Positions 8,169 through 64,000 of a stretch of DNA of 64,000 nucleotides are shown in pieces. The DNA comes from a virus (Duplodnaviria > Caudoviricetes), in the IMG/VR virus record IMGVR_UViG_3300047282_000191, positions 25,717 through 89,716 of that record. One strand, given 5' to 3'. Every line of letters begins with the position of its first letter. The stretch's first letter is position 1. Both the position numbers and the translations under genes were made by a program. The notes under the pieces are model-generated. The model saw only the letters and a list, made by a program, of their open reading frames with translations, did not search any database and had not been told where the DNA came from.

Positions 8169-8178
8169 ATTTCACCTC

Positions 8179-8529: not shown

Positions 8530-8532
8530 TAT

Positions 8533-13545: not shown

Positions 13546-13570
13546 TCAATTCATCCTATAAAATTATATG

Positions 13571-15188: not shown

Positions 15189-15235
15189 TTTTTACCTTTT
15201 TACAAAAATATGATTTAGCTATCATTAACTATATA

Positions 15236-16483: not shown

Positions 16484-16486
16484 TTA

Positions 16487-18124: not shown

Positions 18125-18143
18125 TTATACTACCCTTTCAGAA

Positions 18144-21100
18144 TTAACCGTATGAAGACATTTGACCTAAAACTACCCAAGCTCCTGCACTAGTTCTAAT
18201 TAGTGTGAATACAACGACGTCAGTTTTATTAGCTTGAGGAGTAGGTTGTGTGTTACCCGCCCATCTGATAGTTTGTGATGCTGAATTAATCTGTACAGCT
18301 GTAGGTAAGTATCCTGTACTACCTTGTGCTAATACTAATGTAACAGACATGATCCTACCAGATGTTGTCGGCACGTTGGTAAAGTTAGCAGTAAAGTTTG
18401 CACTAATGCTGGAATGATAGAACACGTCAGTAACAGCGAAATCATGTGTTACTGTACCAGTCGCAGAAGTCTTAGAATCCATCAATTCAACGATCGACTC
18501 GACGTTAGTGATACCACCAACTTGTAAGTTATTGTTGATCGTTGTAGTACCAGTCGCAGCACCGATATTAACTGTAGTAGCAGCACCAAACGCATTTACT
18601 GTGGTTGCATTTGTATTGAATAGTGTTACAGTTCCTGTAGATGTTGTAGTGATGTCTCCACCATTTACAGCGATGTCTCCAGTTAAAGTTAATCCTCCAA
18701 CTCTTAGATCACCATATGTTAATCCAGTGCCAGAGAAGTTAACTGTGCTTAAAGGTGCTAGTTCATCTAAACCAGTAAATAGTTTAAACACTCCATCTGA
18801 AGCATCTCTCACTAAACCGCTAAACTTAGGTTGGAAGACGACCTTTCCATTTGCGTGTGTAGCTGCCGTTGTGCTATTAGCTCCACGAGTACATCCAGTG
18901 AATGTTGTAGCAGTTTTACCGGTATATGTGATCTCTTCACTTTCGATGTATAGATGTCCAGTAGAACCAAATGCTGCTGTACTTGTCACCGTGATCGTAG
19001 TAGCTGAAGCTGATATACCACCAACGATATTGATCGTAGTAGCTTGTGAACTGTGGATACCATAGAAACCTAAGTCAACGGTGTCTGTTGAGTTTCCTGT
19101 ACCCATCTTGATCATAGGATCTGAAACTGCAAGTGTTGAAGTTTCTAGTGATGAACCAGCACCACCGATAGAGATCGCACCTGTAATATTAACGTTACCG
19201 CCAACATACAAGTTACCTTGTAATCCAACACCACCATCAATACGTAAAGCACCTGTCGTTACGCTTGTAGCTTCAGTATTAGCATAGATCTCTACGCCTT
19301 CAGCATGACCCGCTCTTGCTGCACCGATGATTCGTAGTTTTTCATTACCAGCATCAAATCCATTTGTAAAGAATACGATATCGTTTTGTGTTCCAGTATT
19401 ATCTGTACCAATCAACATGTTGCCAGTAGATGATGTACCTGCTGGTGCTGACATGAAGATGTATCCAGTAGAAGGACCTGTAACTGTGAACGTTGGATCG
19501 TTGTAGTTCTCAGATGTGATACCCATATCCATCCAACCAGAGTCATTGTCTCCGTTAGATGAATATACGATCATGTCTGTAGAAGCACCTGTACCACTAT
19601 TAAAGTTCTTCAATGCTACTTGTACGAATGAATCTGCGTGACCAGTAAATACTGCAGATGCATCGGTTAGACCAACATAACCAGCGTATACTGTGTCATC
19701 TTGTGTAAGCTGTTTAGCTGTGACTTCTCCATCACGACCTTGATAGATAGCACCACCATAAGCTTGGATCTCACCGTCTAGGTTCAAGTTACCTTGTAAT
19801 CCAACACCGCCTTGTACTCTTAATGCACCAGTGAATGGGTTATATGAAGCTGTATTGATATAAACCTCAATACCAGCTGGATCTTTTTGTTGTGTGATAG
19901 TCCTAGATGTAAGAGTTTGACGTTGATCTACAGTATATGTTCCAACTCCACCAGCAGTTCCTGTGAGTTGAGATGATATAGTAGTTCCGTTGACGACACC
20001 TGTACCAGTAATTGTCTTTGTACCATCAAATATGATAGGTCCACCGCTAGCAATAGCTGTAACTGTTAATACGTTATCTGCGATTGAGCCAGTGAATACT
20101 GCTCCGCTTCTGCTTTCACCAATGATACGCATCTTTTCTGCGTCTGTATTTGTTGTCGGATCGAAACCACCTGTAACGAACACGATGTCTTTTTCAACTC
20201 CGTTTTCACCAGTAGCGATGACTAAGTTACCAGGACCAGTTGAACCAACTGGAGCGTTCATGAACAAGTATCCGTCATGAACGTCAGTGATACCATATCC
20301 AGAGGTGATATCGAATCCAGAGGATGTGATACCCATGTCGATCCAACCTGAATCGTTGTCACCGTCATCTGTGTAGCAGATCAAGTCTGTAGATGCTGCA
20401 GGACCATCATTGATATTCTTAAGAGCGATTTGACCAAACGCATCAACGTCAGAAACGGCTAAGAACTTAACATCTGTTAAGCCAACATAACCAGCATATT
20501 GATGATCGTCTTGTAGATAAAGCTGTGCGTCTTCACCGATGAAGATAGAAGCTGATGCACTTGTTCCAGCGGTCTCACCGATGATCACATGATCTTGAAG
20601 ATGGATCGTTTCAGCTGCAAGGTGTGCAGTTAATGACCATTCCGGTTCTGTGCCAGCAGGATTTACTACTAAAATAGGTTGGCTTTGATGTGTAGATCCA
20701 TCATGATCTGTATGTGATGATCCTAAAGCTGCGATAGGTAGACGAGTTGCACCGCTAGAATCACGATAGATGATATCGCCTCGAGTAGTAACTACAGCTG
20801 AGGCAGAACCGTCAGCGAGTACTTGCCAATAAGTGTTAGTTGTATCTGCTGCAGGAGAGTTACCTGATGATGCAGTGTGTGCTTGGATACAAATATGAGT
20901 ACTTGTACCTTGTTTAACAAGTTGATTTAACTTGTATGCTGTACCACTTGTCCAGTTACCTGACCATTCTAAGCCTTCGCTGAATAGTTCCCAATGGCCT
21001 GTATCATATGGAGTTTCTGTAGTAGCGTCAGCTGTACATAAGTATTGATTGCCGCCGTAACGAACTAGATCACCTGTCTTATATGGTAATACACCAGAAC

Positions 21101-25762: not shown

Positions 25763-25770
25763 TATTTATA
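25763..25770 (-). promoter_or_regulatory. T4-type late promoter TATAAATA
   Basis: Plus strand TATTTATA at 25763-25770, overlapping the DUF3050 stop codon. Confidence 0.75.
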
Positions 25771-26521
25771 TGAGTTGCGATTCTATGTCATCAAATAATT
25801 TAATTCTGGCTTTAATGGCTTTAATTGCGGCTTGTTCAGCCTCGTGAATTAAGAATGGATCATCTTTACAAAAATAATTAACCAAATGCTCTGACATGGG
25901 TCCATGGCTATCTCCATCGACCTGTATATGTCTTTCTAAGTAATAATGAAACTTAGGAGCATCAGTTTCTGATATATCGATCTGTTTAAGTAACCTTTTA
26001 AACATTGCTGGAATTACTGACTCTCTACCATAACAAAATGAAGCTGCGGCACAATGAGGTCCCATGTTTATAGCATCAAAAGTAGTTTTTACAAAATCCA
26101 TAGAGGCTTTTGGAACATACTCACATTCTATATGTGAATTGAACTTACTAACGGCATCCAGGTAATTTCTAACGGGCATTGTATCAGCACCTACTTCCAT
26201 CATTGCCTGTAAATATAAGTCAAAATGGCTTATAGATGATTTACCATCTGGAGATATATCAGACTCTTCACAAAGAACTATCTCATTGATCATCCTAGCA
26301 ATATCAGATCTTGTGCCAGGAGTTGGTAGCCATATATTACTAGTTGGCACTACATTGTGTTGTATAGTTTTTAATAGACTCATGAAATCCCATACCGCAA
26401 AGACGTGGTATTTCATGAAGATTCTAAGATCTTCAATAGATTGTATAGTATTAGTTACAAGAAGAGAATGATTCTCAAGCTGAGATCGGTGCTCTTGTAT
26501 CTTCTTTAGGTCTAATTTCAT
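25766..26521 (-). CDS. DUF3050 / heme-oxygenase-like (HDO) diiron protein
   Basis: FM..HVFAVWDFMSLLK, R.INEIVL.EESD, SHF.LYL.AM...GA, F..GRE..IP.MF, YYLERHI..DGD.HGP. Confidence 0.85.
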   Translation of the reverse strand: MKLDLKKIQEHRSQLENHSLLVTNTIQSIEDLRIFMKYHVFAVWDFMSLLKTIQHNVVPTSNIWLPTPGTRSDIARMINEIVLCEESDISPDGKSSISHFDLYLQAMMEVGADTMPVRNYLDAVSKFNSHIECEYVPKASMDFVKTTFDAINMGPHCAAASFCYGRESVIPAMFKRLLKQIDISETDAPKFHYYLERHIQVDGDSHGPMSEHLVNYFCKDDPFLIHEAEQAAIKAIKARIKLFDDIESQLI

Positions 26522-27806
26522 TTAATCCAGTTTCTAATAATTCTATAGGTTCATTAAACAATAATGAGAATGCGTTTTGTTGGATAGCAGAATACCAAAT
26601 CTTTTCTACTCTACAATTATGCAAAAATACTTCATCAGGAAACTTAATAGGACAACTAGACTTACAAAGTCTTCTAACTGGACATGTATAACAATGCTCG
26701 TGTTTTCTATCTAAATCTAATTGTATGATCTTAACACTCTTGATATCTTTGATATGACCTCCTTTAAATTTCTCAGAGGTGTGTGGGCATAACCTAACTT
26801 GTCCCATGATATCCATAGAAAGAATGTCAGCAGCATCAGCTCCACAATTTGAAGTCATTGTGATGGGTATTTGATGTCGAGTTAAAGCAGCATACTTAAG
26901 AACACCAGCATCTCCATCAATGACATTAGAGTTTAAGATACGATCTCCACCCTCTCTCAATTGTTTGATAGCAGCTTTAATATAGTCATTAACTATCTTT
27001 TTAAACTTGGGTAAATCATCGCCTTTGATGACATGCTCAGCTGAGTTTTTAGAGTCTGTATCATCATAAACTCGTGCAGGAATATAACTAATCCTTGCAT
27101 GTTTTAATCCCAATTTATCTTTTATAGCTTTAAAATAATCATTAATTTCAAAGAGATCGAAGTTTGTAGCAGAAACTACAGGATTAAAACTATATTGCAC
27201 TTTAGGACTCATGTCATCAAATTGTTTGATGACATCTACAACACTCTTTCTACCAAAGATATCTTCACCACGAAGTCTTTCATGTCCTGGACCATCATGT
27301 GAAATACCCATCATGACGCTTGCTGTTAAAGTCTTAAAGAAGTCAACATGCTTTTGCCTCAACGGAGATGCGTTTGTAGAAATGTAGAAGTGACGTCCTG
27401 GCCCATCAAGTAACTTCATGATTGGCACCATGTCATTCCAGTATAGAAACGGTTCACCGCCCCAAAGTTCGATACGTTCTAAGTTTTCTAAGTCAAGATA
27501 CTTGTTTATGGATTCTACAAATGATTCAAGCCAGAAGTTTTGTGGTCTCTCATCTGGATTACCAATATCTTTTTGCATACAATATGTGCATGAATAGTTA
27601 CATGCATGTCCTAAAAGGATTCGTAATGCAGTTGGCTTATTTGTCTTGTGTTGTACACCAAAGTTATGTTGTACATTTTCAAAGAATTCATAACCTTCTT
27701 TGGGAGGCAAAGATAGGATCTCGCCTTTATCATTATGAAGACTGTTATCCAAGTTTCTATAATAGAATACTTTACCAGATTGTGTTTGAAATTTACTAAA
27801 GCTCAT
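26475..27806 (-). CDS. Radical SAM/SPASM enzyme (rSAM-4)
   Basis: CNYSCTYC, ELWGGEPF, STN, ISHDGP, and C-terminal C...CP.H / C..C.....C...CP...C. Start moved to ATG 27806 (ATGA overlap with the upstream stop). Confidence 0.92.
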   Translation of the reverse strand: MSFSKFQTQSGKVFYYRNLDNSLHNDKGEILSLPPKEGYEFFENVQHNFGVQHKTNKPTALRILLGHACNYSCTYCMQKDIGNPDERPQNFWLESFVESINKYLDLENLERIELWGGEPFLYWNDMVPIMKLLDGPGRHFYISTNASPLRQKHVDFFKTLTASVMMGISHDGPGHERLRGEDIFGRKSVVDVIKQFDDMSPKVQYSFNPVVSATNFDLFEINDYFKAIKDKLGLKHARISYIPARVYDDTDSKNSAEHVIKGDDLPKFKKIVNDYIKAAIKQLREGGDRILNSNVIDGDAGVLKYAALTRHQIPITMTSNCGADAADILSMDIMGQVRLCPHTSEKFKGGHIKDIKSVKIIQLDLDRKHEHCYTCPVRRLCKSSCPIKFPDEVFLHNCRVEKIWYSAIQQNAFSLLFNEPIELLETGLNEIRPKEDTRAPISA

Positions 27807-28864
27807 TTTATGCCTATAATTGGTACGATATTGCCGCAATTAGGCTTGACTAAACCAAATTTAGTCTTCGCCCATCCATTTTCTAATAATTTATAACAGT
27901 ATTTACTATATGGCGGGATCATCAATCCTGGGATAAAATTAAAATTGCGATTGATATTATAATCAGCAACAAGATTGAAATATTTTTTAAATTTAGGATT
28001 CTTCGTCCTATTCGCCCATTTGCTATATGCTTTTTGTTTACCAAGTAAAAGATCTGTTAAGAATGCTTCTCTATCAAAGCTATCTTGTACTTGATGAAAT
28101 GCTTCTTCGTTTAAATCACTTGCGTCATCACTAGAATAATACCAACGATCAAAATAAAGATGCACAGATTCCCTATAAATCTGCATTAAACCCTGTTCAT
28201 CGCTATCGACCCAAGTTGTTTGTTCTTGCGCCCATTCATGTTCTAATACTTCTCTTTGACCTAAGAAATTATGGTGAACAATGTTATCCATATTATGTTT
28301 ATTTGCAAGTTCAATATATGGTGTAAATAACTCAGGATATCCATCATCTATAAACTTAAGTTTTAAGATAGGAGACTTATCATTCAACCGTTCTAATGCA
28401 TCAATTAATTTCTTTGGATTTACTGATTTTAAAAACGTTGAACTAATGCTAATATTAGCTAAAGATTTAAATTTAATGGTGTCTAATATTTTTGCTGTTC
28501 TAAAAATAGCATTATCTGTAAAACAATATTCTAAGTTATGGGCATTCTCTTGATACCATCTATATGCATCCGGATAGTTTAATTTCAGAAAAAGCATATC
28601 ATCGTTAGTACGAACTACTAAGAAATGAGAGAATACCTCTTGCCACATATCTTCATGTTTTTGTGTTATCTTTGGGAAGTATGTGTTTAAGTTTGGCTTA
28701 ATACCTTTAAAATTTTTATCGATATAACATATCTTGCAACCAGCAGCGCAATAATATCTTGTACCCAAACTAAAATAGACATCATAGTTAACTGGATGTA
28801 ATGCATCTTGTGTTAACCAGTACTCGTGTAGATTCTCGGCTTTTTCAAAATCTTCAGTTATCAT
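27803..28864 (-). CDS. Divergent radical-SAM-like protein (rSAM-3)
   Basis: CAAGCKIC (CxxxCxxC) near the N-terminus; no GGEP motif and no SPASM Cys cluster. Confidence 0.6.
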   Translation of the reverse strand: MITEDFEKAENLHEYWLTQDALHPVNYDVYFSLGTRYYCAAGCKICYIDKNFKGIKPNLNTYFPKITQKHEDMWQEVFSHFLVVRTNDDMLFLKLNYPDAYRWYQENAHNLEYCFTDNAIFRTAKILDTIKFKSLANISISSTFLKSVNPKKLIDALERLNDKSPILKLKFIDDGYPELFTPYIELANKHNMDNIVHHNFLGQREVLEHEWAQEQTTWVDSDEQGLMQIYRESVHLYFDRWYYSSDDASDLNEEAFHQVQDSFDREAFLTDLLLGKQKAYSKWANRTKNPKFKKYFNLVADYNINRNFNFIPGLMIPPYSKYCYKLLENGWAKTKFGLVKPNCGNIVPIIGIK

Positions 28865-29979
28865 ATATTCACCTTGAATTGATTATCTATACCAATCCTA
28901 TGGAACAATGTTTTTTCTTTCTTAAGCTCTGCATTGTGCATTATAGCAGTATCAACGAACTTATAGAAATCTTTACAACTTCCTTCAGGTTGTTTATCAA
29001 ATAACTTATAAAGGTATTTTAAACCACAACTTGCTTTTTGTTGACATTTGAGACATGATTCATTAACTCTACCTTCATCGCCTCGAGGTTGCCAAACTTC
29101 GACTCCATCTTGCCATTTGCCTATGCGTGTATTCTCAACTTTATATTCTAAGAAATCAAATTCTGGATACAAATAACCGTCAGGAGATAATATTAGTTTA
29201 TTATGTTCTGCAAAATATGCTTTATCAATCTTGTCATAATTACCATCAATGAAAATATTTAATTTCTTAATGTATAATATTTGAATAAACTCAAGAAATG
29301 CACCAAAGAATTGCGGCAAGTTTATTCGATCTATGATAACATCAAATTTCTCTTCGCCGCGGTGATGTCTAAGGGGGATAATGTTTACAGTCTTACATCC
29401 AGTGTTGTAACACGTATCTACTATAGATTGTATATTTTCAAACGAGAATGCTCGTCTATCTTCAACAGGCAAGACATACTGCCATTTCCAATCAAAACAA
29501 TGCTGATTTAATACTTCAGCCATTTCTATAACATTTAGTTTATCGCGATTCTCTTCTTGGAACATAAAATCATAACTAATAGTTGCACCAAGTTTACCAG
29601 AATACTTTTCAAATATATGCTTGTTCTCTTTAACTAAAGAACCATTGGTTGTCATTCCTACCTTCCAACCATTGCGCTCGGCGATAGGCATCAACCATTC
29701 TAGGCATTGTTCCATGCGTTTTGCAAATAATAGCGGTTCACCACCATGGAAAGATACCCATTCAACTTTATTTTCTTGTCTTTCTGCCCACAAGAAAAAC
29801 TCTTGCAACTCTTGAGTTGTATTGCCGTTTAAGGATTGACCACCAAGAGATTCTATATAACCTCGATCACAATATACGCAATCAAAGTTGCACTTGTTTC
29901 CAAGATAGATGATAAGCATCTTAACATTATTAAGAGGCTTTTCTCTCTTATTGTAAAAGTTTATAGCTGATTGCATCAT
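28861..29979 (-). CDS. Radical SAM enzyme with a reduced SPASM-like C-terminus (rSAM-2)
   Basis: CNFDCVYC, SFHGGEPLL, TTNGSL, ISYD, LSPDG..YP, CLKC.....C.......C. Confidence 0.9.
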   Translation of the reverse strand: MMQSAINFYNKREKPLNNVKMLIIYLGNKCNFDCVYCDRGYIESLGGQSLNGNTTQELQEFFLWAERQENKVEWVSFHGGEPLLFAKRMEQCLEWLMPIAERNGWKVGMTTNGSLVKENKHIFEKYSGKLGATISYDFMFQEENRDKLNVIEMAEVLNQHCFDWKWQYVLPVEDRRAFSFENIQSIVDTCYNTGCKTVNIIPLRHHRGEEKFDVIIDRINLPQFFGAFLEFIQILYIKKLNIFIDGNYDKIDKAYFAEHNKLILSPDGYLYPEFDFLEYKVENTRIGKWQDGVEVWQPRGDEGRVNESCLKCQQKASCGLKYLYKLFDKQPEGSCKDFYKFVDTAIMHNAELKKEKTLFHRIGIDNQFKVNI

Positions 29980-31669
29980 CTAAGGCTCGGTCATCAGAGG
30001 CTAATATCAATACGTGAAGTAATGCTAAGAAAAATACTTCTTGCATCTGGTTTTGTACTTTAACTATTCTGCCAGTTGGCATATTTCTCTTAGCTAGAAT
30101 TTGATAATAAAAATCGTCGATACTTACTTGCTTATCTCCGATTAAATGTTCTATAGCATCAAGGAACTCTTCTGGTTTAACTTTATCCAGTTCTTTATGC
30201 TTACCTTCCATAATCTCTAACCAAAAACCCAACAATCGTTGAGGATCTTTAAACTTATTAACGAGATCATTGTGTACTTTATCGAGCGATGGATGATACT
30301 GATAGACATAGTAGAATAGCATATAGCTGATAGCTTTGAGGAATGTTTGTTCGTACCCTTCAGTGTGCAATGCACGGACTAATGTATCATATTTAATCTT
30401 AAATTGTTTCTTGGCGATATCTTCTTGTAAATCTACATAAAGCTTAACAATCTTTTGACACATGTCATCTGGTCTGAACATACGCGTACCAGTATCTAAG
30501 TTGCCCGCTGGACACTGATAGCATGCATTCTTATAATCACAAGTCTTGCACTGCTCTTCCTCTTCGAACATCTTAGCATATTCTTTTTGGAAGTGTTTAT
30601 AACGATCTATATAGATCGTATCATTAAATATATTACCCAATATAGTATCTGATGTTGGCCCACCCTTTTGATTTGTGAAGAAGTAGCAACCAGAAAAATC
30701 TCCACTGGCATCAATCGCTATCATATCAGAACCGATCATACAGTTCTCTTCGCCCTTCTTTCCAACACCCTCACTAAAATGGATTTGCAAGTCTTCATAC
30801 TTATCAAGCGATTTTAATATGTCATTGTGGAGAGTATTCCATTCTTGTTCACTCCATTGAATGAATCCTCTTGCAGAATCTAATATCAATGGATGAACTA
30901 CTAAACGTCTAATTCCTCGCTTATACAAATTATCAACAAACTCTGCAAAGTAAGGTGCATTCTCTCTGGCAAGAGTACAGCGTACAGTGACTCGTTTCTG
31001 AAATTTTGGCTCTTCTGGGATTGTTTGGATCTGATCCATGAGCTTGTTTATCTTCTCTTGACCGATCTCTCTATGATCGACCTCAGCCTTATCAGTATCT
31101 AGCGAGATAAGCATATATGTAAAGTCGTGCGAGAAATATTCTTCAACAAGAGGTTGACTTAATAATAACCCATTGGTGACGATACCGATAACAGTATTAC
31201 TCTCTCCACGTGAGTTAAGTTCTAGCTCTTCTTTATTCTTGCGTAGGAAATCTAAGATGATATCTTTGTGGATTAAAGGTTCTCCGCCAAAGAATTGAAA
31301 TACTTTCTTTTGATTAGTGTTTGCATCTTTTAAGAATCGATATGCAGTTAAGAGAGACTCATTGGTAAACCTACCAAAGTCTTTCTTATGCTGCTCATAA
31401 CAATAAGAACATGATAAATTACATGCATTAGTTAATATAAGATTCATCTGCTTCAATTCACTGAACAGATATTTTGTATTGCTTATATTAAGAATAGTCT
31501 CTGTTTCTTTAGGAACTACAGAGATTAATTTATTAATCTTATCCAATCCCTTTGGTGTAATAATCTTTTCACTAAGGAATTGAAATTGTCCATCAGTCTC
31601 AACAACTGAGGCTTTATGATCTTCTTGTCTTTGTCTTTGAGCTTCGGTTTTTAACCAAATAGTCTTCAT
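29948..31669 (-). CDS. Radical SAM/SPASM enzyme with C-terminal helical extension (rSAM-1)
   Basis: CNLSCSYC, FFGGEPL, VTNG.LL, ISLD, C..G......D..G.F.GC, C..C.....C..CP......C. Start moved to ATG 31669, overlapping the peptide stop (ATGA). Confidence 0.92.
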   Translation of the reverse strand: MKTIWLKTEAQRQRQEDHKASVVETDGQFQFLSEKIITPKGLDKINKLISVVPKETETILNISNTKYLFSELKQMNLILTNACNLSCSYCYEQHKKDFGRFTNESLLTAYRFLKDANTNQKKVFQFFGGEPLIHKDIILDFLRKNKEELELNSRGESNTVIGIVTNGLLLSQPLVEEYFSHDFTYMLISLDTDKAEVDHREIGQEKINKLMDQIQTIPEEPKFQKRVTVRCTLARENAPYFAEFVDNLYKRGIRRLVVHPLILDSARGFIQWSEQEWNTLHNDILKSLDKYEDLQIHFSEGVGKKGEENCMIGSDMIAIDASGDFSGCYFFTNQKGGPTSDTILGNIFNDTIYIDRYKHFQKEYAKMFEEEEQCKTCDYKNACYQCPAGNLDTGTRMFRPDDMCQKIVKLYVDLQEDIAKKQFKIKYDTLVRALHTEGYEQTFLKAISYMLFYYVYQYHPSLDKVHNDLVNKFKDPQRLLGFWLEIMEGKHKELDKVKPEEFLDAIEHLIGDKQVSIDDFYYQILAKRNMPTGRIVKVQNQMQEVFFLALLHVLILASDDRALDDAISYKLLQ

Positions 31670-31872
31670 ACAGTCCCACGGCCACAAGCGCAAGCACACT
31701 GACATTCGCAGACAGTGTTATAATCATCATAAAATATGTGGCTGTGAGATGCTAGAGATTCTAGCACATCTAGCATTTGCCTAAAAGTATCAGCTGAAAT
31801 AGTATCTTCAACTGCCTTTGTACCTGGGACCGTTGATCCAGTATTAAAATCGCTCGTATTTTCTACACCCAT
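31666..31872 (-). CDS. 68-aa Cys-rich peptide, putative radical-SAM substrate (HxH module plus CxCxCxCxC core)
   Basis: Ends YNTVCECQCACACGRGTV; RBS-like GAGG upstream; immediately precedes and is coupled to rSAM-1. Confidence 0.8.
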   Translation of the reverse strand: MGVENTSDFNTGSTVPGTKAVEDTISADTFRQMLDVLESLASHSHIFYDDYNTVCECQCACACGRGTV

Positions 31873-58503: not shown

Positions 58504-58690
58504 TCTCTAATACCTTGGTGATGACGGCTTCTGTGGTGTTGAGGGTCTTGGCTATGGTAGGGATGGACATACCGGTATTCCTATATAGACGGATCTGCTG
58601 CATGAACAGGTCAAACTCGTTCTGCTCCCATACGGATACGATCCTCTGCAGGTCCTGTGTCTTCCTCTTCTTAGACTGCCATCCGCTCAT
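58496..58690 (-). CDS. Small early protein with a possible C-terminal HTH
   Basis: GMSIPTIAKTLNTTEAVITKVL resembles a helix-turn-helix. Confidence 0.5.
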   Translation of the reverse strand: MSGWQSKKRKTQDLQRIVSVWEQNEFDLFMQQIRLYRNTGMSIPTIAKTLNTTEAVITKVLENG

Positions 58691-58881
58691 ATCTGCCCCT
58701 TCCTCAGCTCAACAAAGGTCCGATACCTTGTATTAAACTGGATCCGCTTCTTAAATGTGATCAGGTCCCTTGTACCGGCCTTGACATACCCGTACATCCA
58801 CTGCTTATCATCTGACAAGACATAGGCATGGTTCTCCTGTGGGACCTGCCAGTCCTTAGTCGTCTCTCTGAACAGCTTCAT
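58687..58881 (-). CDS. Small early hypothetical protein
   Basis: Start set at ATG 58881 (MKLFRETTKDW...NH.Y.L......GY...G......F......F....R.F..L), a pattern common in T4-like early ORFs. Confidence 0.6.
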   Translation of the reverse strand: MKLFRETTKDWQVPQENHAYVLSDDKQWMYGYVKAGTRDLITFKKRIQFNTRYRTFVELRKGQI

Positions 58882-58894
58882 AAGATCCTCCGGA

Positions 58895-59086
58895 TCATAG
58901 GGGTGTCCTGAACATGTTCTTCTGGATGTACTGAGTGATGAATTCGTGCTGCTCGACCAGGTCATCCATATCCAGGTCCATATCTAAGTTATCCCGGACA
59001 AAGTCATCAATAAGTTCCTCGACCTGGGATAGTAGCTCTGCGGCTAGCTGCTCGTTCCTTTGTTTCTGTGTAGTCATAGTCATCAT
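58895..59086 (-). CDS. Small acidic early protein
   Basis: Open frame with AGGA RBS; D/E-rich. Confidence 0.55.
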   Translation of the reverse strand: MMTMTTQKQRNEQLAAELLSQVEELIDDFVRDNLDMDLDMDDLVEQHEFITQYIQKNMFRTPL

Positions 59087-59163
59087 ATATCCTTATAAAT
59101 GGTGGCCTCCAGTCCCTTACTGCTGAGCCATGTCAGCTGAGAGACCTTCATAGGCCGTGATCA

Positions 59164-60087
59164 TTAGTTGGTCAACACGTATGTTGCCAAGTCCTTATAG
59201 TCATGTGGGTTAGCTGCACGGATCTTGCTAACGCTGATCAAGGTGCGGAGGCTGATCTCCTTTGCTTGGTCCTTCACTTCGCGGATCAAGGCGAGTGCAT
59301 CGGCCTTGATCTCCATCGTGTATTCTGGGAGGAACTCCTCACTCTCAGCGATGTGAGCCATGCGGTCGATCTTCTGGTCATCTGTCATGGAGAGGTCGAT
59401 CATCATTGAACGGCTACGGATAGCTTGGTCAATCTTGTCTTGGTCCATGTTTGAGATGAAGATGACGCGACCTTTAAACTCAAAGCTACGTGGTAGGTCA
59501 TCGTCCTTGCCGAATGACTCAGCATTCCAGCTGATGATACGCTTACCGTAGGAGTCCAATGCACCTTTGAGTAGGTTAAGAGCCACAGGATCCTTGAGGA
59601 TGGAATCACAGTCATCGAACACGATCGTCGCATTTTGATTCTCAAAGAGTGTACGGTACAAACCTTTAGGTGTACTGTAACCTTTGATGGTCACGTAGAC
59701 GGTCTTCATTGGGATGGTAGCGCCCACTGGAAGCTTTTGGACCACTTCGTTGAAGTCTTTTAGACCGTTGGCTTGCAACGTCTTCATGACTGTGTAGGTC
59801 TTACCTAACCCGCCCTGACCGGTGATGATCGTCGAAGGCTGGACTCCAGTGGCAACCATGCCTACGATCTTCTCCACGAAACCAAAACGTTGGTTGATGC
59901 AGAACTTCTCAGAGACAGCTGGCTTCTGCATAGCCTCGATGTCCTTGAAGGCCTTCTTTTCACCGGTGATCTGCTTGAACATGTACTCGATGTAGTTCTG
60001 TTTGGTCGTGGTAAAACGCTGACCGTTGATAGAACACTTGAACTTGCCGGCACCTTTGTCAAACCCGATAATCACTGTAGCTGTCAT
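59164..60087 (-). CDS. AAA-type P-loop ATPase
   Basis: Walker A GQGGLGKT, Walker B IVFDDCD, LKGALDS...R.ISW, F.F.GRVIFISN, A..SR. Start set at ATG 60087 after AAAGGAAAG. Confidence 0.85.
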   Translation of the reverse strand: MTATVIIGFDKGAGKFKCSINGQRFTTTKQNYIEYMFKQITGEKKAFKDIEAMQKPAVSEKFCINQRFGFVEKIVGMVATGVQPSTIITGQGGLGKTYTVMKTLQANGLKDFNEVVQKLPVGATIPMKTVYVTIKGYSTPKGLYRTLFENQNATIVFDDCDSILKDPVALNLLKGALDSYGKRIISWNAESFGKDDDLPRSFEFKGRVIFISNMDQDKIDQAIRSRSMMIDLSMTDDQKIDRMAHIAESEEFLPEYTMEIKADALALIREVKDQAKEISLRTLISVSKIRAANPHDYKDLATYVLTN

Positions 60088-60119
60088 TTCTTTCCTTTGT
60101 TTAATCATTTAATGGAACC

Positions 60120-60148
60120 ATTATACCCTGATTTTTCGCTGTTGTACA
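60120..60148 (-). promoter_or_regulatory. Sigma70-type early promoter for the ATPase gene
   Basis: Minus strand TGTACA-N17-TATAAT, 33 nt upstream of the ATG. Confidence 0.7.
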
Positions 60149-60250
60149 TAGGCCAGAGCGAAATATTTCGTGAATAATTTGTCCAATAAAATCATAGACT
60201 TACACGGGTGGTATTGGACCTGGACTGATTCCACCCTATGAAATAGACGT

Positions 60251-60274
60251 AAAAAAGGCAGCCCGTAGGCTGCC
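60251..60274 (-). terminator. Rho-independent terminator after pqqA
   Basis: Minus strand GGCAGCC-TACG-GGCTGCC-TTTTTT (cUACGg loop). Confidence 0.88.
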
Positions 60275-60298
60275 CGTGGATCTGGCCGTACGTGGTGA

Positions 60299-60370
60299 TT
60301 ACTTATTCATCACGTACATTGTGACTTCGAAACCAAATCTCATCTCTGTTGCTGATGGTGTTGTCCACAT
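60299..60370 (-). CDS. pqqA: Pyrroloquinoline quinone precursor peptide
   Basis: Not in the ORF track. Hand-translated MWTTPSATEMRFGFEVTMYVMNK (23 aa): MW..P, R.G.E-V-T-x-Y (the Glu/Tyr pair used for PQQ); strong AAGGAGA RBS; terminator 24 nt downstream. Confidence 0.93.
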   Translation of the reverse strand: MWTTPSATEMRFGFEVTMYVMNK

Positions 60371-60590
60371 GGTGTTATCTCCTTAGTTAGTTAATTAATG
60401 ATATACTTCTACTACTTCCTAAGTCAGATCGCTAGAGACATTCACTGAAGTCTAGCTTGAGACATGATTTATCTATACTGCGGCCTTCTGTTTGCTACTA
60501 GTTAAAACCATTAATCCTCTATAGTCCCCGTACTATTTTGATCTCTGCGAGATCTTTATCACACAGGGCCTTAATATTGCGGGCCTCACC

Positions 60591-60620
60591 TTCTACCACT
60601 TTTTACCACTTTCTACCACC
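60591..60620. repeat. Three tandem 10-bp repeats TT(C/T)TACCAC(T/C)
   Basis: TTCTACCACT TTTTACCACT TTCTACCACC read directly. Confidence 0.8.
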
Positions 60621-60627
60621 TTCGATC

Positions 60628-60873
60628 TCATAGCATATACTTCTTGAGTAGTTCTGTGGCTTCTGGAGTCTTATTATCCTGTGATTCTAAGGACTCGATG
60701 AACTCGATACGTATGAGCTCAAGTATGCTAAGCGCCTCTGCTTTATCCCTTGGTGAGAGGGTAGCAACGAAGGCCTCTACGTCGTCCCATTCATCGATGT
60801 TCCACATGAGGTCAGCTAAGGCTTTCTGTCGATGTGTTAGTCCATGGATCTGTAACACGTTCATTTGCTCCAT
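60628..60873 (-). CDS. Small early hypothetical protein
   Basis: I.GLT..Q..LAD.MW.I...D.V..F...L pattern; open frame packed with neighbours. Confidence 0.65.
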   Translation of the reverse strand: MEQMNVLQIHGLTHRQKALADLMWNIDEWDDVEAFVATLSPRDKAEALSILELIRIEFIESLESQDNKTPEATELLKKYML

Positions 60874-61067
60874 GCAAGTTCTGTGGTGTGGGTGGTACGG
60901 ATATGGTGGTAGGCGCTCGCGAGGCTATCTATGTCTGGTTGGATGAGCTCGAGCTTCCTCATGTTGATGTCCTTTAAGAACCCTTTACTGATGACGCTGA
61001 CTGCTTTATCGTAGTCTTGCTGTTCGTAGCAGATCAAAATTCTGTCCTCCTGGTATTCTTTACCCAA
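60861..61067 (-). CDS. Small hypothetical protein
   Basis: Open frame overlapping both neighbours; start uncertain. Confidence 0.4.
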   Translation of the reverse strand: MGKEYQEDRILICYEQQDYDKAVSVISKGFLKDINMRKLELIQPDIDSLASAYHHIRTTHTTELAWSK

Positions 61068-61267
61068 GCTTGTTGTGCTTCATGGGACGTAAGGCGATCT
61101 TCACTACTGAAGGTCGTGACGATCTTATGTCTCGTCTGGAGGTCGGCATTCACGTACTCATGGAGTTCGTCTGCTATCTTCCTGAGCCTGGTATTGATGT
61201 CGTTGTCCTGTGGGAGGGTGGAGGCGATGGCGTGTAGGTCGAGGATGGCTTGTTGTAGGTTCTTCAT
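61034..61267 (-). CDS. Small helical early protein
   Basis: ATGA overlap with the upstream 30-aa ORF. Confidence 0.6.
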   Translation of the reverse strand: MKNLQQAILDLHAIASTLPQDNDINTRLRKIADELHEYVNADLQTRHKIVTTFSSEDRLTSHEAQQAWVKNTRRTEF

Positions 61268-61356
61268 AGCTTAAAGTACTCCTCTACCCAATAAAGTAAG
61301 GCGCTCATGATGATGATGACGTAGATCCAGTTATATTCCTTGAAATGGTCCATCAT
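61264..61356 (-). CDS. 30-aa single-TM peptide (below the ORF-track cut-off)
   Basis: Hand-translated MMDHFKEYNWIYVIIIMSALLYWVEEYFKL; ATGA overlaps at both ends. Confidence 0.65.
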   Translation of the reverse strand: MMDHFKEYNWIYVIIIMSALLYWVEEYFKL

Positions 61357-61643
61357 AGTGCGAGGATCCCAACATGCACGCCGCTATTATCTGAGATGAC
61401 TTTCTTCGAGATGTCTGCAAACACCTTACTCGTGAGTGGTGTCATGCCTTGCTTGCTGCGTGATAGCTTATACACTGTGCCGTCACGGGTCGTACACTCG
61501 AGGTAGTCATCTCGATCCTCTGTCCGATCAATGATATGTGATAGTTCCCAGTTCTCGTCATCACCATGGAGCACCTTCGTGAAGGCATTATAGTCCTTCG
61601 TCCATTCCAATATTACCCACCTCTTCGCTACGACCATCACCAA
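61353..61643 (-). CDS. Small early hypothetical protein
   Basis: WVILE.......KVL.G....W.LS..I..........T..G..Y.L pattern seen in T4-like early ORFs. Confidence 0.6.
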   Translation of the reverse strand: MVMVVAKRWVILEWTKDYNAFTKVLHGDDENWELSHIIDRTEDRDDYLECTTRDGTVYKLSRSKQGMTPLTSKVFADISKKVISDNSGVHVGILAL

Positions 61644-61864
61644 CCTCCTGAGTCTGAATGTCGTAGGAGGTATTCATACACCTCCCACGGGTTATCTGTA
61701 AATATGACGCTCGGCTTCTGTGAGTCCCAATGCTTGTTCGGGCTATGCCACCACCTCTCAGCCAGTCCTTCGTTGCTTGCTAACATGGATGTGAGGAGCA
61801 CATCGCACCGTGCCTTTATATCTTCGTGTGATAGGTTCTTCTTCATCATCTTACTTCCTGCCAA
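61637..61864 (-). CDS. Small protein resembling the MbcA/ParS/Xre antitoxin C-terminal domain
   Basis: A..WW..PN.......P motif. Confidence 0.45.
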   Translation of the reverse strand: MAGSKMMKKNLSHEDIKARCDVLLTSMLASNEGLAERWWHSPNKHWDSQKPSVIFTDNPWEVYEYLLRHSDSGGW

Positions 61865-62181
61865 TCGTCATCGTCTCTGAAATCTTCAACTTCTGGCTCG
61901 AAGGGTAGTACATACCAATCATCTTCTTGTAGGACGTACTCACCTGCATCTCGCTTCTTATTATCCTCTACTCGTCTTGCTGCGTCACGTACGAGCTTCT
62001 TTGTATCTGCTATGCCCTCGGGCGTCTGCTTGTATTCCTTCGCTACCTGTGATAGCTTCTCACGAGTGGTGACCTTCACCACTCGATGGGAGTTCGAGCA
62101 TGCCTGAGAGCAGAAAGGCCCACGCTTTCGATGGACCTTCCCACACTCGAGACATGATTTTTCTCGATATACTCCGGGCAA
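61846..62181 (-). CDS. Zn-finger-containing protein
   Basis: C..CGK.......FCS..C at the N-terminus; acidic tail. Confidence 0.6.
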   Translation of the reverse strand: MPGVYREKSCLECGKVHRKRGPFCSQACSNSHRVVKVTTREKLSQVAKEYKQTPEGIADTKKLVRDAARRVEDNKKRDAGEYVLQEDDWYVLPFEPEVEDFRDDDDWQEVR

Positions 62182-63084
62182 TTACGCCTCTTTTGCTAGC
62201 TTACTGAAGTATGAGAGTGTGTCGTCATCTTCGTCGTCGCCAGCCACTGCAGGAGCGAATGCACTCGCTGCTGACTTACCTGCTGATGGTGCCGCACGCG
62301 TCTCATCAAGTTCAACGTGCTCTGCTGTAGTGCGTGGTGCGGATCCACCGAGCACTCGTTCGAGCTTTGCTTTGAGTTCATCATAGGACTTGTATGTCTT
62401 AGGATCTGTGAACTCCTTGAGTGAGTAACACTTGCTGTAGATTGATTCGAGTTCACCTTCATCTCCGTTCGCCACAGGTGTGGGTTTATCAAACTCAGAC
62501 TTATCGTAGTTACGATAGCCTTCAACGTTGCGGATCTTCAACTTAAAGTTAGCACCTTCCCATAGATCAAATGGGTTGATAGGTTGCTCATCTTGAAACT
62601 GAGGCTGCATGACATCCATCATCTTGTCATAGATCTTCTTACCATATTGGTAGAGGAATACCTTGCCTTCGTTTTCAGGGCGTGCAGGGTCAGAGACGAC
62701 CAACACGTTTGAAACGTAGTGTAGACGACGCTTCTGTTTACGTGCGATGTCCTTATCAGATTCCAAACCTGAGTTCCAAAGCTTGGAGTTCAGTTCAGAT
62801 ACTGGATCTTGACCGCCGATCGATGTGAGAGACTTCTCGATGTACCAACCACCAGGACCTTGAAAGCCGTGGTCCCAGTATCGAGCCCATGGATAATCAT
62901 CACCTTGTGGTGCGGGGAGGAAACGAATGACAGCGAAGCCGTTACCAGCTTTGTCGACTTCCGGTTTCCACATGCGATTGTCTTCGTAGGATTGTTGTTG
63001 CTGACCACCGCCGACTTTTTCTGCGGCTGCAACGAGTTTGTTGATCTCGCTTGCACGAGACGCTTTGAGATTTGCTAATGACAT
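62182..63084 (-). CDS. gp32: Single-stranded DNA-binding protein
   Basis: D.R.WKP..DK.GNG.AVIRFLPAP, W.H.FQGPGGWY.E.SL...G..DPV.E.N..LW, GKVFL..YGKKI.DK, FD.WEGANFKLKIR...GY.NYD.SEF; acidic tail. Confidence 0.97.
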   Translation of the reverse strand: MSLANLKASRASEINKLVAAAEKVGGGQQQQSYEDNRMWKPEVDKAGNGFAVIRFLPAPQGDDYPWARYWDHGFQGPGGWYIEKSLTSIGGQDPVSELNSKLWNSGLESDKDIARKQKRRLHYVSNVLVVSDPARPENEGKVFLYQYGKKIYDKMMDVMQPQFQDEQPINPFDLWEGANFKLKIRNVEGYRNYDKSEFDKPTPVANGDEGELESIYSKCYSLKEFTDPKTYKSYDELKAKLERVLGGSAPRTTAEHVELDETRAAPSAGKSAASAFAPAVAGDDEDDDTLSYFSKLAKEA

Positions 63085-63132
63085 AATTTATGTTCCTTTA
63101 TATAGCAGTGTTTAACATTGTATGGAATAACT

Positions 63133-63162
63133 ATTATACCACATTTGCACTCTCTTGTAAAC
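63133..63162 (-). promoter_or_regulatory. T4-type early promoter upstream of gp32
   Basis: Minus strand GTTTACA-N17-TATAAT with extended TGTGG before the -10, matching the T4 early consensus; lies within the gp59 3' end. Confidence 0.85.
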
Positions 63163-63754
63163 AGTCTTTGAGTGCATCCTTGATAGCTTCGTTATTCACC
63201 GTAATAAACGGGTTGTACTTACGTATCTTCAATGAGAGGTCAGGCCACATGATGGGATCTGATATCTCTTTGTCGAACTTAGGCATAAACCCGATATATC
63301 GATTAAGGACGATGAAAGTCTCGAGTGGTATCTCGCCTTGAAGTAGTATCTTTACGAGTAATGGATGTTGTCCACCATCTACCACAAACAGACTCTTAAA
63401 GTCATTGTTCGATATAATCTTATCTATATCAGTTTTAAACCGATATGTGAAGGACTCCATGAGACCTTTATATGCTCTATAAGTCTCATCTGAACCTTCT
63501 TCATTTAAGTTGCCTATCCACTTTGTACCGTGGTGGGCAAAATTACATCCATAAAAAAACTTCAACTCGCTAAGCGGGTATTTTCGTACTAACTTAGCGA
63601 AGAAGTGTTTATCACGTCGCGCGAAGAATGATTTTGGCGTGACGCTCGTCTTGCCATTATATTTAAAATAGTCATACGTCTTCGACTCGAAGTGTAGCTT
63701 GCATGCTACGTAAATCTTATAGGCGTCGTATGGATCACTCGAACGTAAGCTCAT
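63134..63754 (-). CDS. gp59: Helicase loader
   Basis: DAY..Y.A.KLHF....YDY.KY.GK.......F..R.DK.FF.KL, H P.L.K..L...I..ET...L, W......KY.PF. Confidence 0.92.
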   Translation of the reverse strand: MSLRSSDPYDAYKIYVACKLHFESKTYDYFKYNGKTSVTPKSFFARRDKHFFAKLVRKYPLSELKFFYGCNFAHHGTKWIGNLNEEGSDETYRAYKGLMESFTYRFKTDIDKIISNNDFKSLFVVDGGQHPLLVKILLQGEIPLETFIVLNRYIGFMPKFDKEISDPIMWPDLSLKIRKYNPFITVNNEAIKDALKDCLQESANVV

Positions 63755-63971
63755 TCTTCTTCTTTAAATAACCAAGATTCATCCCCTCGGCTTCAAGCTT
63801 TGCCTTGATAGGATTACTCAATAATTTTGCAATGTCTTCTGGATCGATCTGTCTCTCTTTACATAGATCTAAGATCGTATCGAGGTAACTAGATCTCTTC
63901 TCAACCACCAATCGTTCTATAAGCTCGCTAAACGATTTTTTGGTGTACATGCCTTCGGGTTGCTCTGACAT
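63735..63971 (-). CDS. gp33: Late transcription co-activator
   Basis: FS..IE..V......Y.D.I...C....ID.E...KL.S...K.K...E...L..L. Confidence 0.88.
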   Translation of the reverse strand: MSEQPEGMYTKKSFSELIERLVVEKRSSYLDTILDLCKERQIDPEDIAKLLSNPIKAKLEAEGMNLGYLKKKNELTFE

Positions 63972-64000
63972 TTTTCATTCACTTTATAATATATGTGGCT

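What the first reader, a model, noticed from the sequence alone, without database searches (positions are those of the whole stretch)
60251..60400. Phage-encoded pqqA as a stand-alone mini transcription unit
Seen: a 72-nt ORF missed by the ORF track, MWTTPSATEMRFGFEVTMYVMNK, with an AAGGAGA RBS and a strong terminator right after it; no pqqB-E in the window. Established: PqqA supplies the Glu and Tyr (E-x-x-x-Y) for PQQ, the cofactor of methanol dehydrogenases, and methylotrophs often carry several pqqA copies. From memory (not searched), this sequence is nearly identical to Methylophilaceae PqqA. Inference: an auxiliary metabolic gene that raises PQQ precursor supply and so methanol oxidation during infection, and a host clue (Methylopumilus/Methylotenera/OM43-type). 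Such genes are routinely missed by gene callers.
Basis: partly seen in the sequence, partly recalled or inferred. Interest (0 to 1): 0.9.

Follow-up and report, generated by a model that had tools for sequence, protein, structure and literature searches.

The report
Phage-borne PQQ precursor gene pqqA
A freshwater T4-like phage carries a real 23-codon copy of pqqA, the small peptide that methanol-eating Methylophilaceae bacteria use up to make the cofactor PQQ. The gene is conserved and common in such phages, but viral pqqA was first reported in 2020, so this is another example rather than a new kind of thing.

Summary
Window 60299-60370 (minus strand) is an intact 23-codon ORF. It scores well above both curated PqqA cut-offs and has an AAGGAGA ribosome-binding site 7 nt upstream and a strong intrinsic terminator.

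It lies between T4-type phage genes in an 89.7-kb IMG/VR virus record. That record has no pqqB, pqqC, pqqD, pqqE or methanol dehydrogenase.

The peptide differs by one residue from the commonest Methylophilaceae PqqA. Synonymous sites are near saturation, so it is neither a recent host capture nor an assembly chimera. An independent contig from another sample (L252, about 91% identical) bridges the locus. Two divergent T4-like contigs keep pqqA between gp32 and the baseplate genes.

The same gene is in every cultured Methylophilales phage record that the search returned, unannotated or mis-annotated. All 120 returned IMG/VR pattern hits are also intact pqqA ORFs.

Best reading: an auxiliary metabolic gene that supplies the consumed precursor to host PqqB-E. 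Expression and effect are not shown, and the promoter is unresolved.

Prior art is Coutinho et al. 2020 (Lake Baikal). This scan has already noted phage pqqA 138 times in at least 85 genomes. Verdict: new member of a known kind, modest interest.

The parts
60299..60370 (-). pqqA coding sequence: 23 codons plus TAA. Cross-link residues are Glu15 and Tyr19 (E-V-T-M-Y).
   Evidence: TIGR02107 38.5 bits and PF08042 41.3 bits. ORF listing and sequence.
60378..60384 (-). Shine-Dalgarno sequence AAGGAGA, with a 7-nt spacer to the ATG.
   Evidence: Read directly from the sequence. The AAGGA core is kept in the relative L252. SD-like purine runs precede pqqA in all seven GenBank phage copies examined.
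60250..60275 (-). Intrinsic terminator: 8-bp stem, 4-nt loop and a run of six U.
   Evidence: Terminator scan. Fold z = -2.9, with 0 of 200 shuffles as stable. It is identical in L252. The same 24 nt follow a capsid-like gene in L253 and L254.
60288..60317 (-). Predicted imperfect hairpin (9 bp with one bulge) spanning the last codons and the stop codon.
   Evidence: Seen in the minimum-free-energy fold of the 386-nt region and read from the sequence. This stretch is almost unchanged in L252. Its function was not tested.
60398..60427 (-). Weak sigma-70-like promoter candidate: CTGACT, 18-nt spacer, TATCAT (9 of 12 matches).
   Evidence: Promoter scan found 6 sites against 4.0 expected by chance. 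This candidate lies in a segment absent from the 91%-identical relative L252, so support is poor.
60371..60627 (-). 257-nt upstream intergenic region. It holds a block conserved with L252 (about 60499-60527), a CCGCnGTATA motif (60474-60483) and three tandem 10-nt repeats (60591-60620).
   Evidence: Alignment A2, repeat search and indels in a related strain. No Rfam family matches.
59164..60108 (-). Downstream neighbour: 314-aa P-loop-like phage protein (phrog_1250).
   Evidence: phrog_1250 E = 6e-66. Homologues occur in 1304 phage records, mostly T4-like.
62182..63084 (-). gp32 single-stranded DNA-binding protein, the upstream anchor of the conserved gene order.
   Evidence: phrog_224 E = 2e-114. 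gp32 lies next to pqqA in L083 and L129.
63134..63754 (-). gp59-type helicase loader.
   Evidence: phrog_269 E = 6e-64.

Best explanation
This is a functional, phage-maintained copy of pqqA, the ribosomally made precursor peptide of pyrroloquinoline quinone (PQQ). It is carried by a freshwater T4-like myovirus that infects a member of the Methylophilaceae.

**Proposed mechanism (inferred):** the short mRNA is translated from a strong ribosome-binding site and ends at its own terminator. The 23-residue peptide is bound by the host's PqqD and cross-linked between Glu15 and Tyr19 by the host's PqqE. Host peptidases, PqqB and PqqC then trim and oxidise it to PQQ.

The hosts keep the enzymes in single copy but pqqA in about five copies. 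A phage that shuts down host transcription can therefore sustain or raise PQQ supply with only 72 nt of its own DNA. That would sustain PQQ-dependent methanol oxidation, the cell's energy source.

**Shown here:** gene identity, phage context, selection, host-family signal and the terminator.

**Inferred only:** expression during infection, processing by host enzymes and any benefit to the phage.
For: - **Identity:** both curated PqqA models are passed at nearly twice their cut-offs over the full profile length. W2, P5, R11 and the E15-x3-Y19 motif are invariant across 117 viral copies, and W2, P5 and R11 lie outside the search pattern used to find them.
- **Phage context:** gp59, gp32, baseplate genes and phrog_1250 flank the gene. 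The downstream neighbour has homologues in 1304 phage records, mostly T4-like.
- **Not a chimera:** an independent contig from another metagenome (L252, about 91% identical) is colinear across phrog_1250, the terminator and pqqA, and again across gp32 and gp59. A Logan contig from run X1 spans 60293-62014 with no differences. L083 and L129, whose gp32 is about 50% identical, keep pqqA between gp32 and the gp26/gp51 baseplate module, each with its own terminator.
- **Selection:**
  - Window against 116 viral copies: pS 0.70 and pN 0.077. Outside the pattern-conditioned codons pN/pS is 0.18.
  - Cultured phages, which were found by tblastn rather than by pattern: pN/pS 0.15.
  - Window against L252: 8 synonymous codon changes and 1 replacement.
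  - The best nucleotide identity to any bacterial copy is 89%.
- **Dosage logic:** 101 of 101 Methylophilaceae genomes carry pqqA, with 481 matches or 4.8 per genome, and 2-3 even in 1.2-1.4 Mb genomes. pqqC and pqqE are single-copy in the three genomes checked.
- **Recurrence:**
  - pqqA is in every cultured Methylophilales or Methylophilaceae phage record that the tblastn search returned. These span several unrelated phage groups: P19250A, Venkman, MEP301, MEP401/402 (Zobellviridae) and Melnitz (Kyanoviridae).
  - All 120 returned IMG/VR pattern hits are intact pqqA ORFs.
  - None of the 127 viral loci has pqqB-E nearby.
- **Published precedent:** the same interpretation was given in PMC7678222.
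Against: - There is no evidence of transcription. The metatranscriptome contigs that were laid did not cover this pqqA.
- No convincing promoter was found. The sigma-70-like hit is at chance level and lies in a segment missing from the close relative. The late-promoter motif TATAAATA is absent upstream.
- PQQ is a catalytic cofactor and is not consumed in turnover. Extra precursor helps only if apo-dehydrogenase or PQQ loss limits energy during infection.
- This record, estimated 54% complete, carries no methanol dehydrogenase, unlike the Lake Baikal phages.
- Host enzymes might already be saturated with precursor.
- The host has not been identified experimentally, and no nucleotide match to 301 Methylophilaceae genomes was found.
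Confidence: 0.7

Rival explanations
1. The gene is passenger DNA. Either a recent, functionless capture of a host pqqA copy, or an assembly chimera that joined phage and host (or two genomes) through the shared 72-nt gene.
For: In the Logan assembly graphs the contigs break at 60298, and other contigs share pqqA but continue differently (loose ends in X1 and X3). Depth over pqqA is also raised in X3. Both show that the gene occurs in several genomes of the same samples.
Against: - An independent contig from another sample (L252) bridges both junctions.
- Both flanks are T4-type phage genes.
- The position between gp32 and the baseplate genes is kept in L083 and L129.
- Synonymous sites are near saturation against every bacterial copy, while the peptide is conserved.
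- The gene has its own ribosome-binding site and terminator.
Confidence: 0.03
2. The peptide is functional but is not a PQQ supply. It could be a decoy that occupies host PqqD and PqqE and so lowers or retimes host PQQ synthesis. Or the conserved DNA or RNA could serve another role, for example as a recombination anchor shared with hosts and other phages, or as a small stable RNA.
For: - Viral copies carry variants that are rare in bacteria: Ser6 in 20 of 79 viral against 3 of 124 bacterial peptides. Cys21 occurs in 14 of 117 viral copies.
- The window-to-L252 comparison shows a change of similarity inside pqqA: the 5' two-thirds and the upstream region diverge while the 3' end and flank are conserved. 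This pattern is compatible with recombination at the gene.
- A predicted hairpin spans the stop codon.
Against: - The cross-link residues Glu15 and Tyr19 and the whole core are unchanged, so host enzymes should treat the peptide as an ordinary substrate.
- Selection acts on the amino-acid sequence, with synonymous sites free. That argues against a purely nucleic-acid role.
- No Rfam family matches.
- The variable positions (4, 6, 21) also vary among bacterial copies.
Confidence: 0.1
3. The peptide is a substrate for the phage's own tailoring enzymes. These are the radical SAM/SPASM proteins and the heme-oxygenase-like DUF3050 protein at 25766-31705. On this reading the phage makes PQQ or a PQQ-like product partly by itself.
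For: - The same phage encodes three proteins that match the Radical_SAM model, one of which has a SPASM match just below its cut-off, plus a DUF3050 protein with a weak match below the cut-off to iron-containing redox enzymes.
- This is formally reminiscent of PqqE (a radical SAM/SPASM enzyme) and PqqC (heme-oxygenase-like fold).
- The Baikal paper also linked viral radical SAM genes to PQQ.
Against: - The best PqqE-model match is 19.5 bits against a cut-off of 381.
- No PqqD/RRE domain (PF05402), PqqB or PqqC was detected anywhere in the record.
- According to first-reader notes that I did not check, the cassette has its own 68-aa Cys-rich precursor. It lies about 30 kb from pqqA, among tail-fibre genes.
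Confidence: 0.04

Closest known systems
Viral PqqA of Lake Baikal T4-like Methylophilaceae phages (population VP_266; Coutinho et al. 2020, Microbiome 8:163, PMC7678222)
   Same: Freshwater, T4-like, predicted Methylophilaceae host. It carries a PqqA precursor gene without pqqB-E and was interpreted as an auxiliary metabolic gene supporting methanol oxidation.
   Different: The Baikal phages have about 35% G+C and also encode methanol dehydrogenase. This record has about 47% G+C and no methanol dehydrogenase in the 89.7 kb available. The Baikal paper did not describe the gene's own signals, its selection or its spread. It also states that phage P19250A has none of these genes, which is not so.
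Dispersed 'orphan' pqqA copies on Methylophilaceae chromosomes
   Same: The peptide is 22 of 23 residues identical to the commonest form and 23 of 23 to two loci. It is a short stand-alone gene away from pqqBCDE: only 15 of 120 bacterial loci have pqqB or pqqC within the stretch fetched. These are multi-copy genes, at 4.8 per genome.
   Different: It is located in a phage genome between replication and baseplate genes. Synonymous sites are saturated against all bacterial copies (at most 89% nucleotide identity). The Ser6 variant is far commoner in viral than in bacterial copies.
Unannotated pqqA of cultured methylophages (P19250A, Venkman, MEP301, MEP401/402, Melnitz) and the Manatee Spring podovirus MW202481
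   Same: Intact 23-24 codon PqqA ORFs, 73-96% identical to the window's peptide, each with an SD-like sequence and several with a downstream hairpin. In Venkman, MEP301 and MW202481 the gene lies opposite to both of its immediate neighbours, so it cannot be co-transcribed with them.
   Different: These are unrelated phage types, and the genome positions differ. Only Melnitz (Kyanoviridae) is T4-like, and there pqqA sits beside gp5 and two tRNA genes.
Cyanophage psbA (D1 protein) as the model auxiliary metabolic gene (established knowledge, not tested here)
   Same: Works alike in principle. The phage supplies only the rapidly depleted component of a host energy-generating system, not the whole pathway, and relies on the remaining host machinery.
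   Different: psbA encodes a structural protein subunit. pqqA encodes a substrate peptide that is destroyed to make a small-molecule cofactor. There is no homology.

Membership tests
PqqA (TIGR02107 / PF08042) | Score above the curated cut-off of the family models over the full profile length | tested here: met
   TIGR02107 38.5 bits against 20, profile positions 1-21 of 21. PF08042 41.3 bits against 21.1, positions 1-19 of 19.
PqqA (TIGR02107 / PF08042) | Conserved Glu and Tyr, spaced E-x-x-x-Y, that become the PQQ ring system | tested here: met
   Glu15-Val-Thr-Met-Tyr19 is present. This motif was part of the search pattern for the IMG/VR copies. It is also present in the seven GenBank phage copies examined, which were found by tblastn.
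PqqA (TIGR02107 / PF08042) | Small ribosomal peptide of about 20-40 residues with a conserved N-terminal part (W-x-x-P ... R) used for recognition | tested here: met
   The peptide has 23 residues. W2, P5 and R11 are invariant in 117 viral copies and lie outside the search pattern.
PqqA (TIGR02107 / PF08042) | Encoded next to pqqBCDE | tested here: not met
   No pqqB, pqqC, pqqD or pqqE in the whole 89.7-kb record. This is not disqualifying: 105 of 120 Methylophilaceae pqqA loci also lack pqqB-E within the stretch fetched.
PqqA (TIGR02107 / PF08042) | Converted to PQQ by PqqD/E, peptidases, PqqB and PqqC | not testable with these tools
   This needs in vitro or in vivo assays. The peptide is shorter than the 30-residue chains that the complex predictor asks for, so no complex was predicted.
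Viral auxiliary metabolic gene | Host-type metabolic gene inside a bona fide virus genome, flanked by virus genes on both sides | tested here: met
   gp59 and gp32 lie upstream; phrog_1250 and baseplate genes lie downstream. Independent contig L252 is colinear.
Viral auxiliary metabolic gene | Maintained by purifying selection in viruses | tested here: met
   pN/pS is 0.15-0.27 on codons or copies not conditioned by the search. There are 8 synonymous codon changes against 1 replacement compared with L252.
Viral auxiliary metabolic gene | Expressed during infection and altering host metabolism | tested here: inconclusive
   Metatranscriptome contigs of two runs did not cover this pqqA. Only a 51-nt piece at about 90% identity matched, and it comes from another genome. 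Contigs cannot show absence.
Stand-alone transcription unit | Own intrinsic terminator | tested here: met
   It is identical in L252. Analogous terminators follow pqqA in L083 and L129.
Stand-alone transcription unit | Own promoter | tested here: inconclusive
   Only a 9-of-12 sigma-70-like hit at chance frequency, lying in a segment absent from L252. There is no TATAAATA upstream. Read-through from the upstream same-strand genes is possible.

The most novel reading that the evidence does not exclude
pqqA is a near-universal hallmark gene of phages that infect Methylophilaceae, independent of phage lineage. Myo-, sipho- and podo-type phages would have acquired it repeatedly or exchanged it among themselves. 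It would then evolve along phage-specific lines (Ser6 and Cys21 variants, recombination boundaries inside the gene). That would imply that supply of the precursor peptide, not of the enzymes, limits PQQ-dependent energy generation during infection. It would also mean a 72-nt marker can assign uncultured phages to methylotroph hosts.
Probability: 0.45. Interest if true: 0.5.

Novelty: new member of a known kind. Interest (0 to 1): 0.3.

Why it matters
- **A minimal auxiliary gene.** The phage carries only the consumable substrate of a cofactor pathway, in 72 nt, and borrows all the enzymes from the host.
- **Annotation gap.** Standard gene callers miss very short metabolic genes, so inventories of viral auxiliary genes under-count them. 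A published statement that phage P19250A lacks such genes is wrong for this reason.
- **Practical use.** The peptide type is a cheap family-level host marker for uncultured freshwater and marine phages of methylotrophs. These bacteria link methanol from primary production to the carbon cycle.
- **Limit.** For this window the value is confirmatory. The phenomenon has been published and has been seen many times in this scan.

Tried and rejected
- **The search for related loci with the 23-aa peptide:** Degenerate DNA patterns were used instead.
- **Host genus from DNA similarity:** window 1-20000 against 301 Methylophilaceae genomes gave only one 29-nt match at E = 1e-3 per genome, which is not significant. 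The genus is left open.
- **tRNA and Rfam searches near the gene:** nothing found.
- **Expression from public metatranscriptomes:**
  - RNA-run contigs (X15, X17) cover parts of the neighbouring phrog_1250 gene and gp32 in relatives, but not this pqqA.
  - Only a 51-nt piece at about 90% identity, from another genome, matched. This is no evidence either way.
- **Junction bridging in Logan contigs:**
  - The 60267-60292 terminator stretch is not bridged by the listed pieces of X1 or X3.
  - IMG/VR contig L252 resolved this instead.
- **TATAGATA as a late-promoter variant upstream of pqqA:** 8 matches against 5.6 expected, mostly inside genes, so not supported.
- **PqqE-like or PqqD-like function for the phage radical SAM cassette:** rejected on scores.
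- **'Acinetobacter phage MD-2021a' hits:** these contigs carry ppk and pqqABCDE and look like bacterial chromosome, so they were not counted as phage pqqA.
- **Complex prediction of PqqA with PqqD:** not attempted, because the peptide is shorter than the 30-residue chains the tool asks for.
- **Tree of pqqA copies:** not attempted. With 72 nt and saturated synonymous sites it would not be informative.
- **First L252 alignment:** I gave the wrong strand and redid it.

Full report
**Observation.** On the minus strand, window 60299-60370 is an ATG-initiated ORF of 23 codons, MWTTPSATEMRFGFEVTMYVMNK.
- It matches both curated PqqA models over their full length: NCBIfam TIGR02107 at 38.5 bits (cut-off 20) and Pfam PF08042 at 41.3 bits (cut-off 21.1).
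- AAGGAGA lies at 60378-60384, 7 nt before the ATG.
- Twenty-three nt after the stop there is an 8-bp G+C-rich stem with a 4-nt loop and six U (60250-60275). The terminator scan finds it. It folds at -18.7 kcal/mol, z = -2.9, with 0 of 200 shuffles as stable.

**Context.** The window is bases 25717-89716 of an 89,716-bp IMG/VR virus record that CheckV rates 54% complete.
- The neighbours on the same strand are a gp59-type helicase loader (63134-63754), gp32 (62182-63084), several small ORFs, pqqA, and then a 314-aa protein of phrog_1250 (59164-60108). Baseplate genes lie beyond.
- The phrog_1250 protein has homologues in 1304 phage records, mostly T4-like.
- G+C is about 47% around the locus, with no compositional break at pqqA.
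- The whole record has one pqqA and no pqqB, pqqC, pqqD, pqqE or PQQ-dependent alcohol dehydrogenase. The pqqC and pqqE models do find single genes in three Methylophilaceae genomes, so the negatives are meaningful.
- The phage's radical SAM/SPASM and DUF3050 cassette (25766-31705) is not PqqE-, PqqD- or PqqC-like by score.

**Not a chimera, not a recent capture.**
- Twelve studies, all aquatic and mostly freshwater, hold the stretch or part of it.
- In run X1 a 1,722-nt contig covers 60293-62014 without a difference, joining pqqA to the upstream phage genes.
  - The assembly graph branches at 60298 because other genomes in the same samples share pqqA.
  - The listed Logan pieces do not bridge the downstream junction.
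- An IMG/VR contig from another metagenome does bridge it. L252, about 91% identical, is colinear over 58623-60384 (phrog_1250, terminator, pqqA) and again over 61140-64000.
- Two much more distant T4-like contigs (L083 and L129, gp32 about 50% identical) also place pqqA just after gp32 and before the gp26/gp51 baseplate module. Each copy has its own strong terminator.
- The closest bacterial copy is only 89% identical over 72 nt.

**Selection.**
- Against 116 other viral copies, the window's gene has pS 0.70 and pN 0.077.
- Codons 13-19 were fixed by my search pattern. On the remaining codons pN/pS is 0.18 for the window against viral copies, and 0.27 over all viral pairs.
- Among the cultured phages, which were found by tblastn, pN/pS is 0.15.
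- Against L252 there are eight synonymous codon changes and one replacement, S6Q.
- W2, P5 and R11, which lie outside the pattern, are invariant in 117 viral copies.

**Host signal and dosage.**
Nearly all rows were labelled Methylophilaceae: Methylotenera, Methylophilus, Methylobacillus, Ca. Methylopumilus and OM43.
- The commonest bacterial peptide differs from the window's only by Ala6. Two bacterial loci are identical to it.
- All 101 sampled Methylophilaceae genomes carry pqqA, with 481 matches or 4.8 per genome. The 1.2-1.4 Mb streamlined genomes still carry 2-3. pqqC and pqqE are single-copy in the three genomes checked.
- Only 15 of 120 bacterial pqqA loci have pqqB or pqqC nearby, so orphan copies are the rule in the hosts too.
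- The genus is unresolved. A 20-kb DNA query found nothing significant in 301 family genomes. The 47% G+C favours Methylotenera or Methylophilus over the 35-38% G+C planktonic genera, by inference only.

**Spread in phages.**
- In 50,697 GenBank phage records, tblastn found pqqA in these cultured Methylophilales or Methylophilaceae phages: P19250A, Venkman, MEP301, MEP401, MEP402 and four Melnitz isolates. It also found one uncultured podovirus, MW202481.
- The two 'Acinetobacter phage' hits are contigs with ppk and pqqABCDE, which look like bacterial chromosome.
- Five of the seven distinct phage genomes examined have no annotation at the site. Melnitz and MW202481 have an antisense ORF called instead.
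- All copies are intact and have an SD-like sequence.
None of the 127 viral loci has pqqB-E nearby.
- Ser6 is commoner in viral than in bacterial copies: 20 of 79 against 3 of 124, Fisher p = 7e-7. The sequences are not phylogenetically independent.

**Transcription unit.**
- The terminator half is solid. It is identical in L252. The same 24 nt follow a capsid-like gene in two other viral contigs, L253 and L254.
- The promoter half is not solid.
  - The only sigma-70-like hit (60398-60427, 9 of 12 matches) is at chance frequency. It falls in a segment missing from L252.
  - TATAAATA occurs six times, always on the coding strand, and four of these lie 26-38 nt before a start codon. It looks like this phage's late promoter, and it is absent upstream of pqqA.
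  - TATAGATA at 60470-60477 is not enriched.
- A block at about 60499-60527 is conserved with L252 and may be regulatory.
- Read-through from upstream genes cannot be excluded.

**Mechanism.** By established knowledge of PQQ biosynthesis:
1. PqqD presents PqqA to the radical SAM enzyme PqqE.
2. PqqE links the Glu and Tyr side chains.
3. Peptidases, PqqB and PqqC complete the cofactor.
4. One peptide is consumed per PQQ.

The phage supplies only this consumable. The most likely function is to keep PQQ synthesis, and hence periplasmic methanol oxidation, going when host transcripts decline. All steps after translation are inferred.

**Comparison and novelty.**
- Coutinho et al. 2020 (PMC7678222) reported PqqA together with methanol dehydrogenase in T4-like Methylophilaceae phages of Lake Baikal and gave the same interpretation.
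- No other paper in the searchable library links pqqA to methylotroph phages. The Melnitz paper mentions PQQ only as a medium additive.
- This scan has already noted phage pqqA 138 times in at least 85 genomes, with follow-ups reaching the same conclusions. I re-derived them independently here.
- New for this window:
  - the conserved position of pqqA between gp32 and the baseplate genes in a freshwater T4-like lineage;
  - the independent colinear contig;
  - the shared terminator module;
  - the correction of the published statement about P19250A.
- Verdict: a genuine and selected gene, and a new member of a known kind, of modest interest.

Noticed in passing
window 60591-60620 (minus strand): Three tandem 10-nt repeats (GGTGGTAGAA, AGTGGTAAAA, AGTGGTAGAA) lie just after the stop of the upstream 81-aa ORF. 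The motif is not enriched elsewhere in the window. A related strain in run X3 has a 10-nt insertion at 60613 and a 20-nt deletion at 60536, so this spacer varies in length.
   Followed up: partly
L253:553-576 and L254:495-518 (IMG/VR contigs): The exact 24-nt terminator of the window's pqqA also follows a capsid-like gene (C-terminus ...YYRIFKVSNILGSA) in two other viral contigs. It is followed there by TATAAATAA. This looks like a terminator module shared among these phages.
   Followed up: partly
window 6139, 23060, 25763, 33019, 44071, 53129 (all minus strand): All six TATAAATA matches are on the coding strand, and four lie 26-38 nt upstream of a start codon. This is probably the T4-type late promoter of this phage. 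The total count is not above chance, but the strand and position bias is striking.
   Followed up: partly
L083 about 1385-1430 and L129 about 600-645: In both distant T4-like relatives, a conserved inverted repeat (AAATCCTG ... CAGGATTT) encloses an AT-rich, promoter-like stretch between gp32 and pqqA. The window has no counterpart.
   Followed up: no
viral pqqA copies, L011-L130: Phage-enriched peptide variants: Ser6 in 20 of 79 viral against 3 of 124 bacterial copies, and a Cys21 form (…TMYVCNK) in 14 of 117 viral copies. The bacterial scan required Met21, so the Cys21 frequency cannot be compared between the two sets.
   Followed up: partly
L013, L022, L027, L033, L034, L037, L086, L090 and others: Some IMG/VR contigs carry PqqA peptides that are not of the Methylophilaceae type, for example cores …TYETIRLGFEVTMYFKNR or …SFEDLRFGFEVTMYINASN. 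This suggests that phages of other PQQ-using bacteria also carry pqqA.
   Followed up: no
window 60299-60384 against L252: Similarity changes inside pqqA. The 3' third of the gene and everything downstream is nearly identical to L252. The 5' two-thirds carry most of the changes, and about 110 nt upstream do not align. This is compatible with a recombination boundary within the gene.
   Followed up: partly
KX815270.1 28085-28153 (L003:2501-2572): Phage P19250A encodes an unannotated PqqA that is 95.7% identical to the window's. This contradicts the statement in Coutinho et al. 2020 that this phage has none of the methylotrophy-related auxiliary genes.
   Followed up: yes
CAKLQF020000010.1 (L009): A 144-kb contig filed as 'Acinetobacter phage MD-2021a' carries ppk and a complete pqqABCDE operon at the matched site. 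At least there it looks like bacterial chromosome rather than phage.
   Followed up: no
window 25766-31705: Three proteins match the Radical_SAM model, and one of them has a SPASM match just below its cut-off. With them is a DUF3050 protein that has a weak match, below the cut-off, to iron-containing redox enzymes. They show no PqqE, PqqD or PqqC membership. Other findings on this genome cover this cassette.
   Followed up: partly
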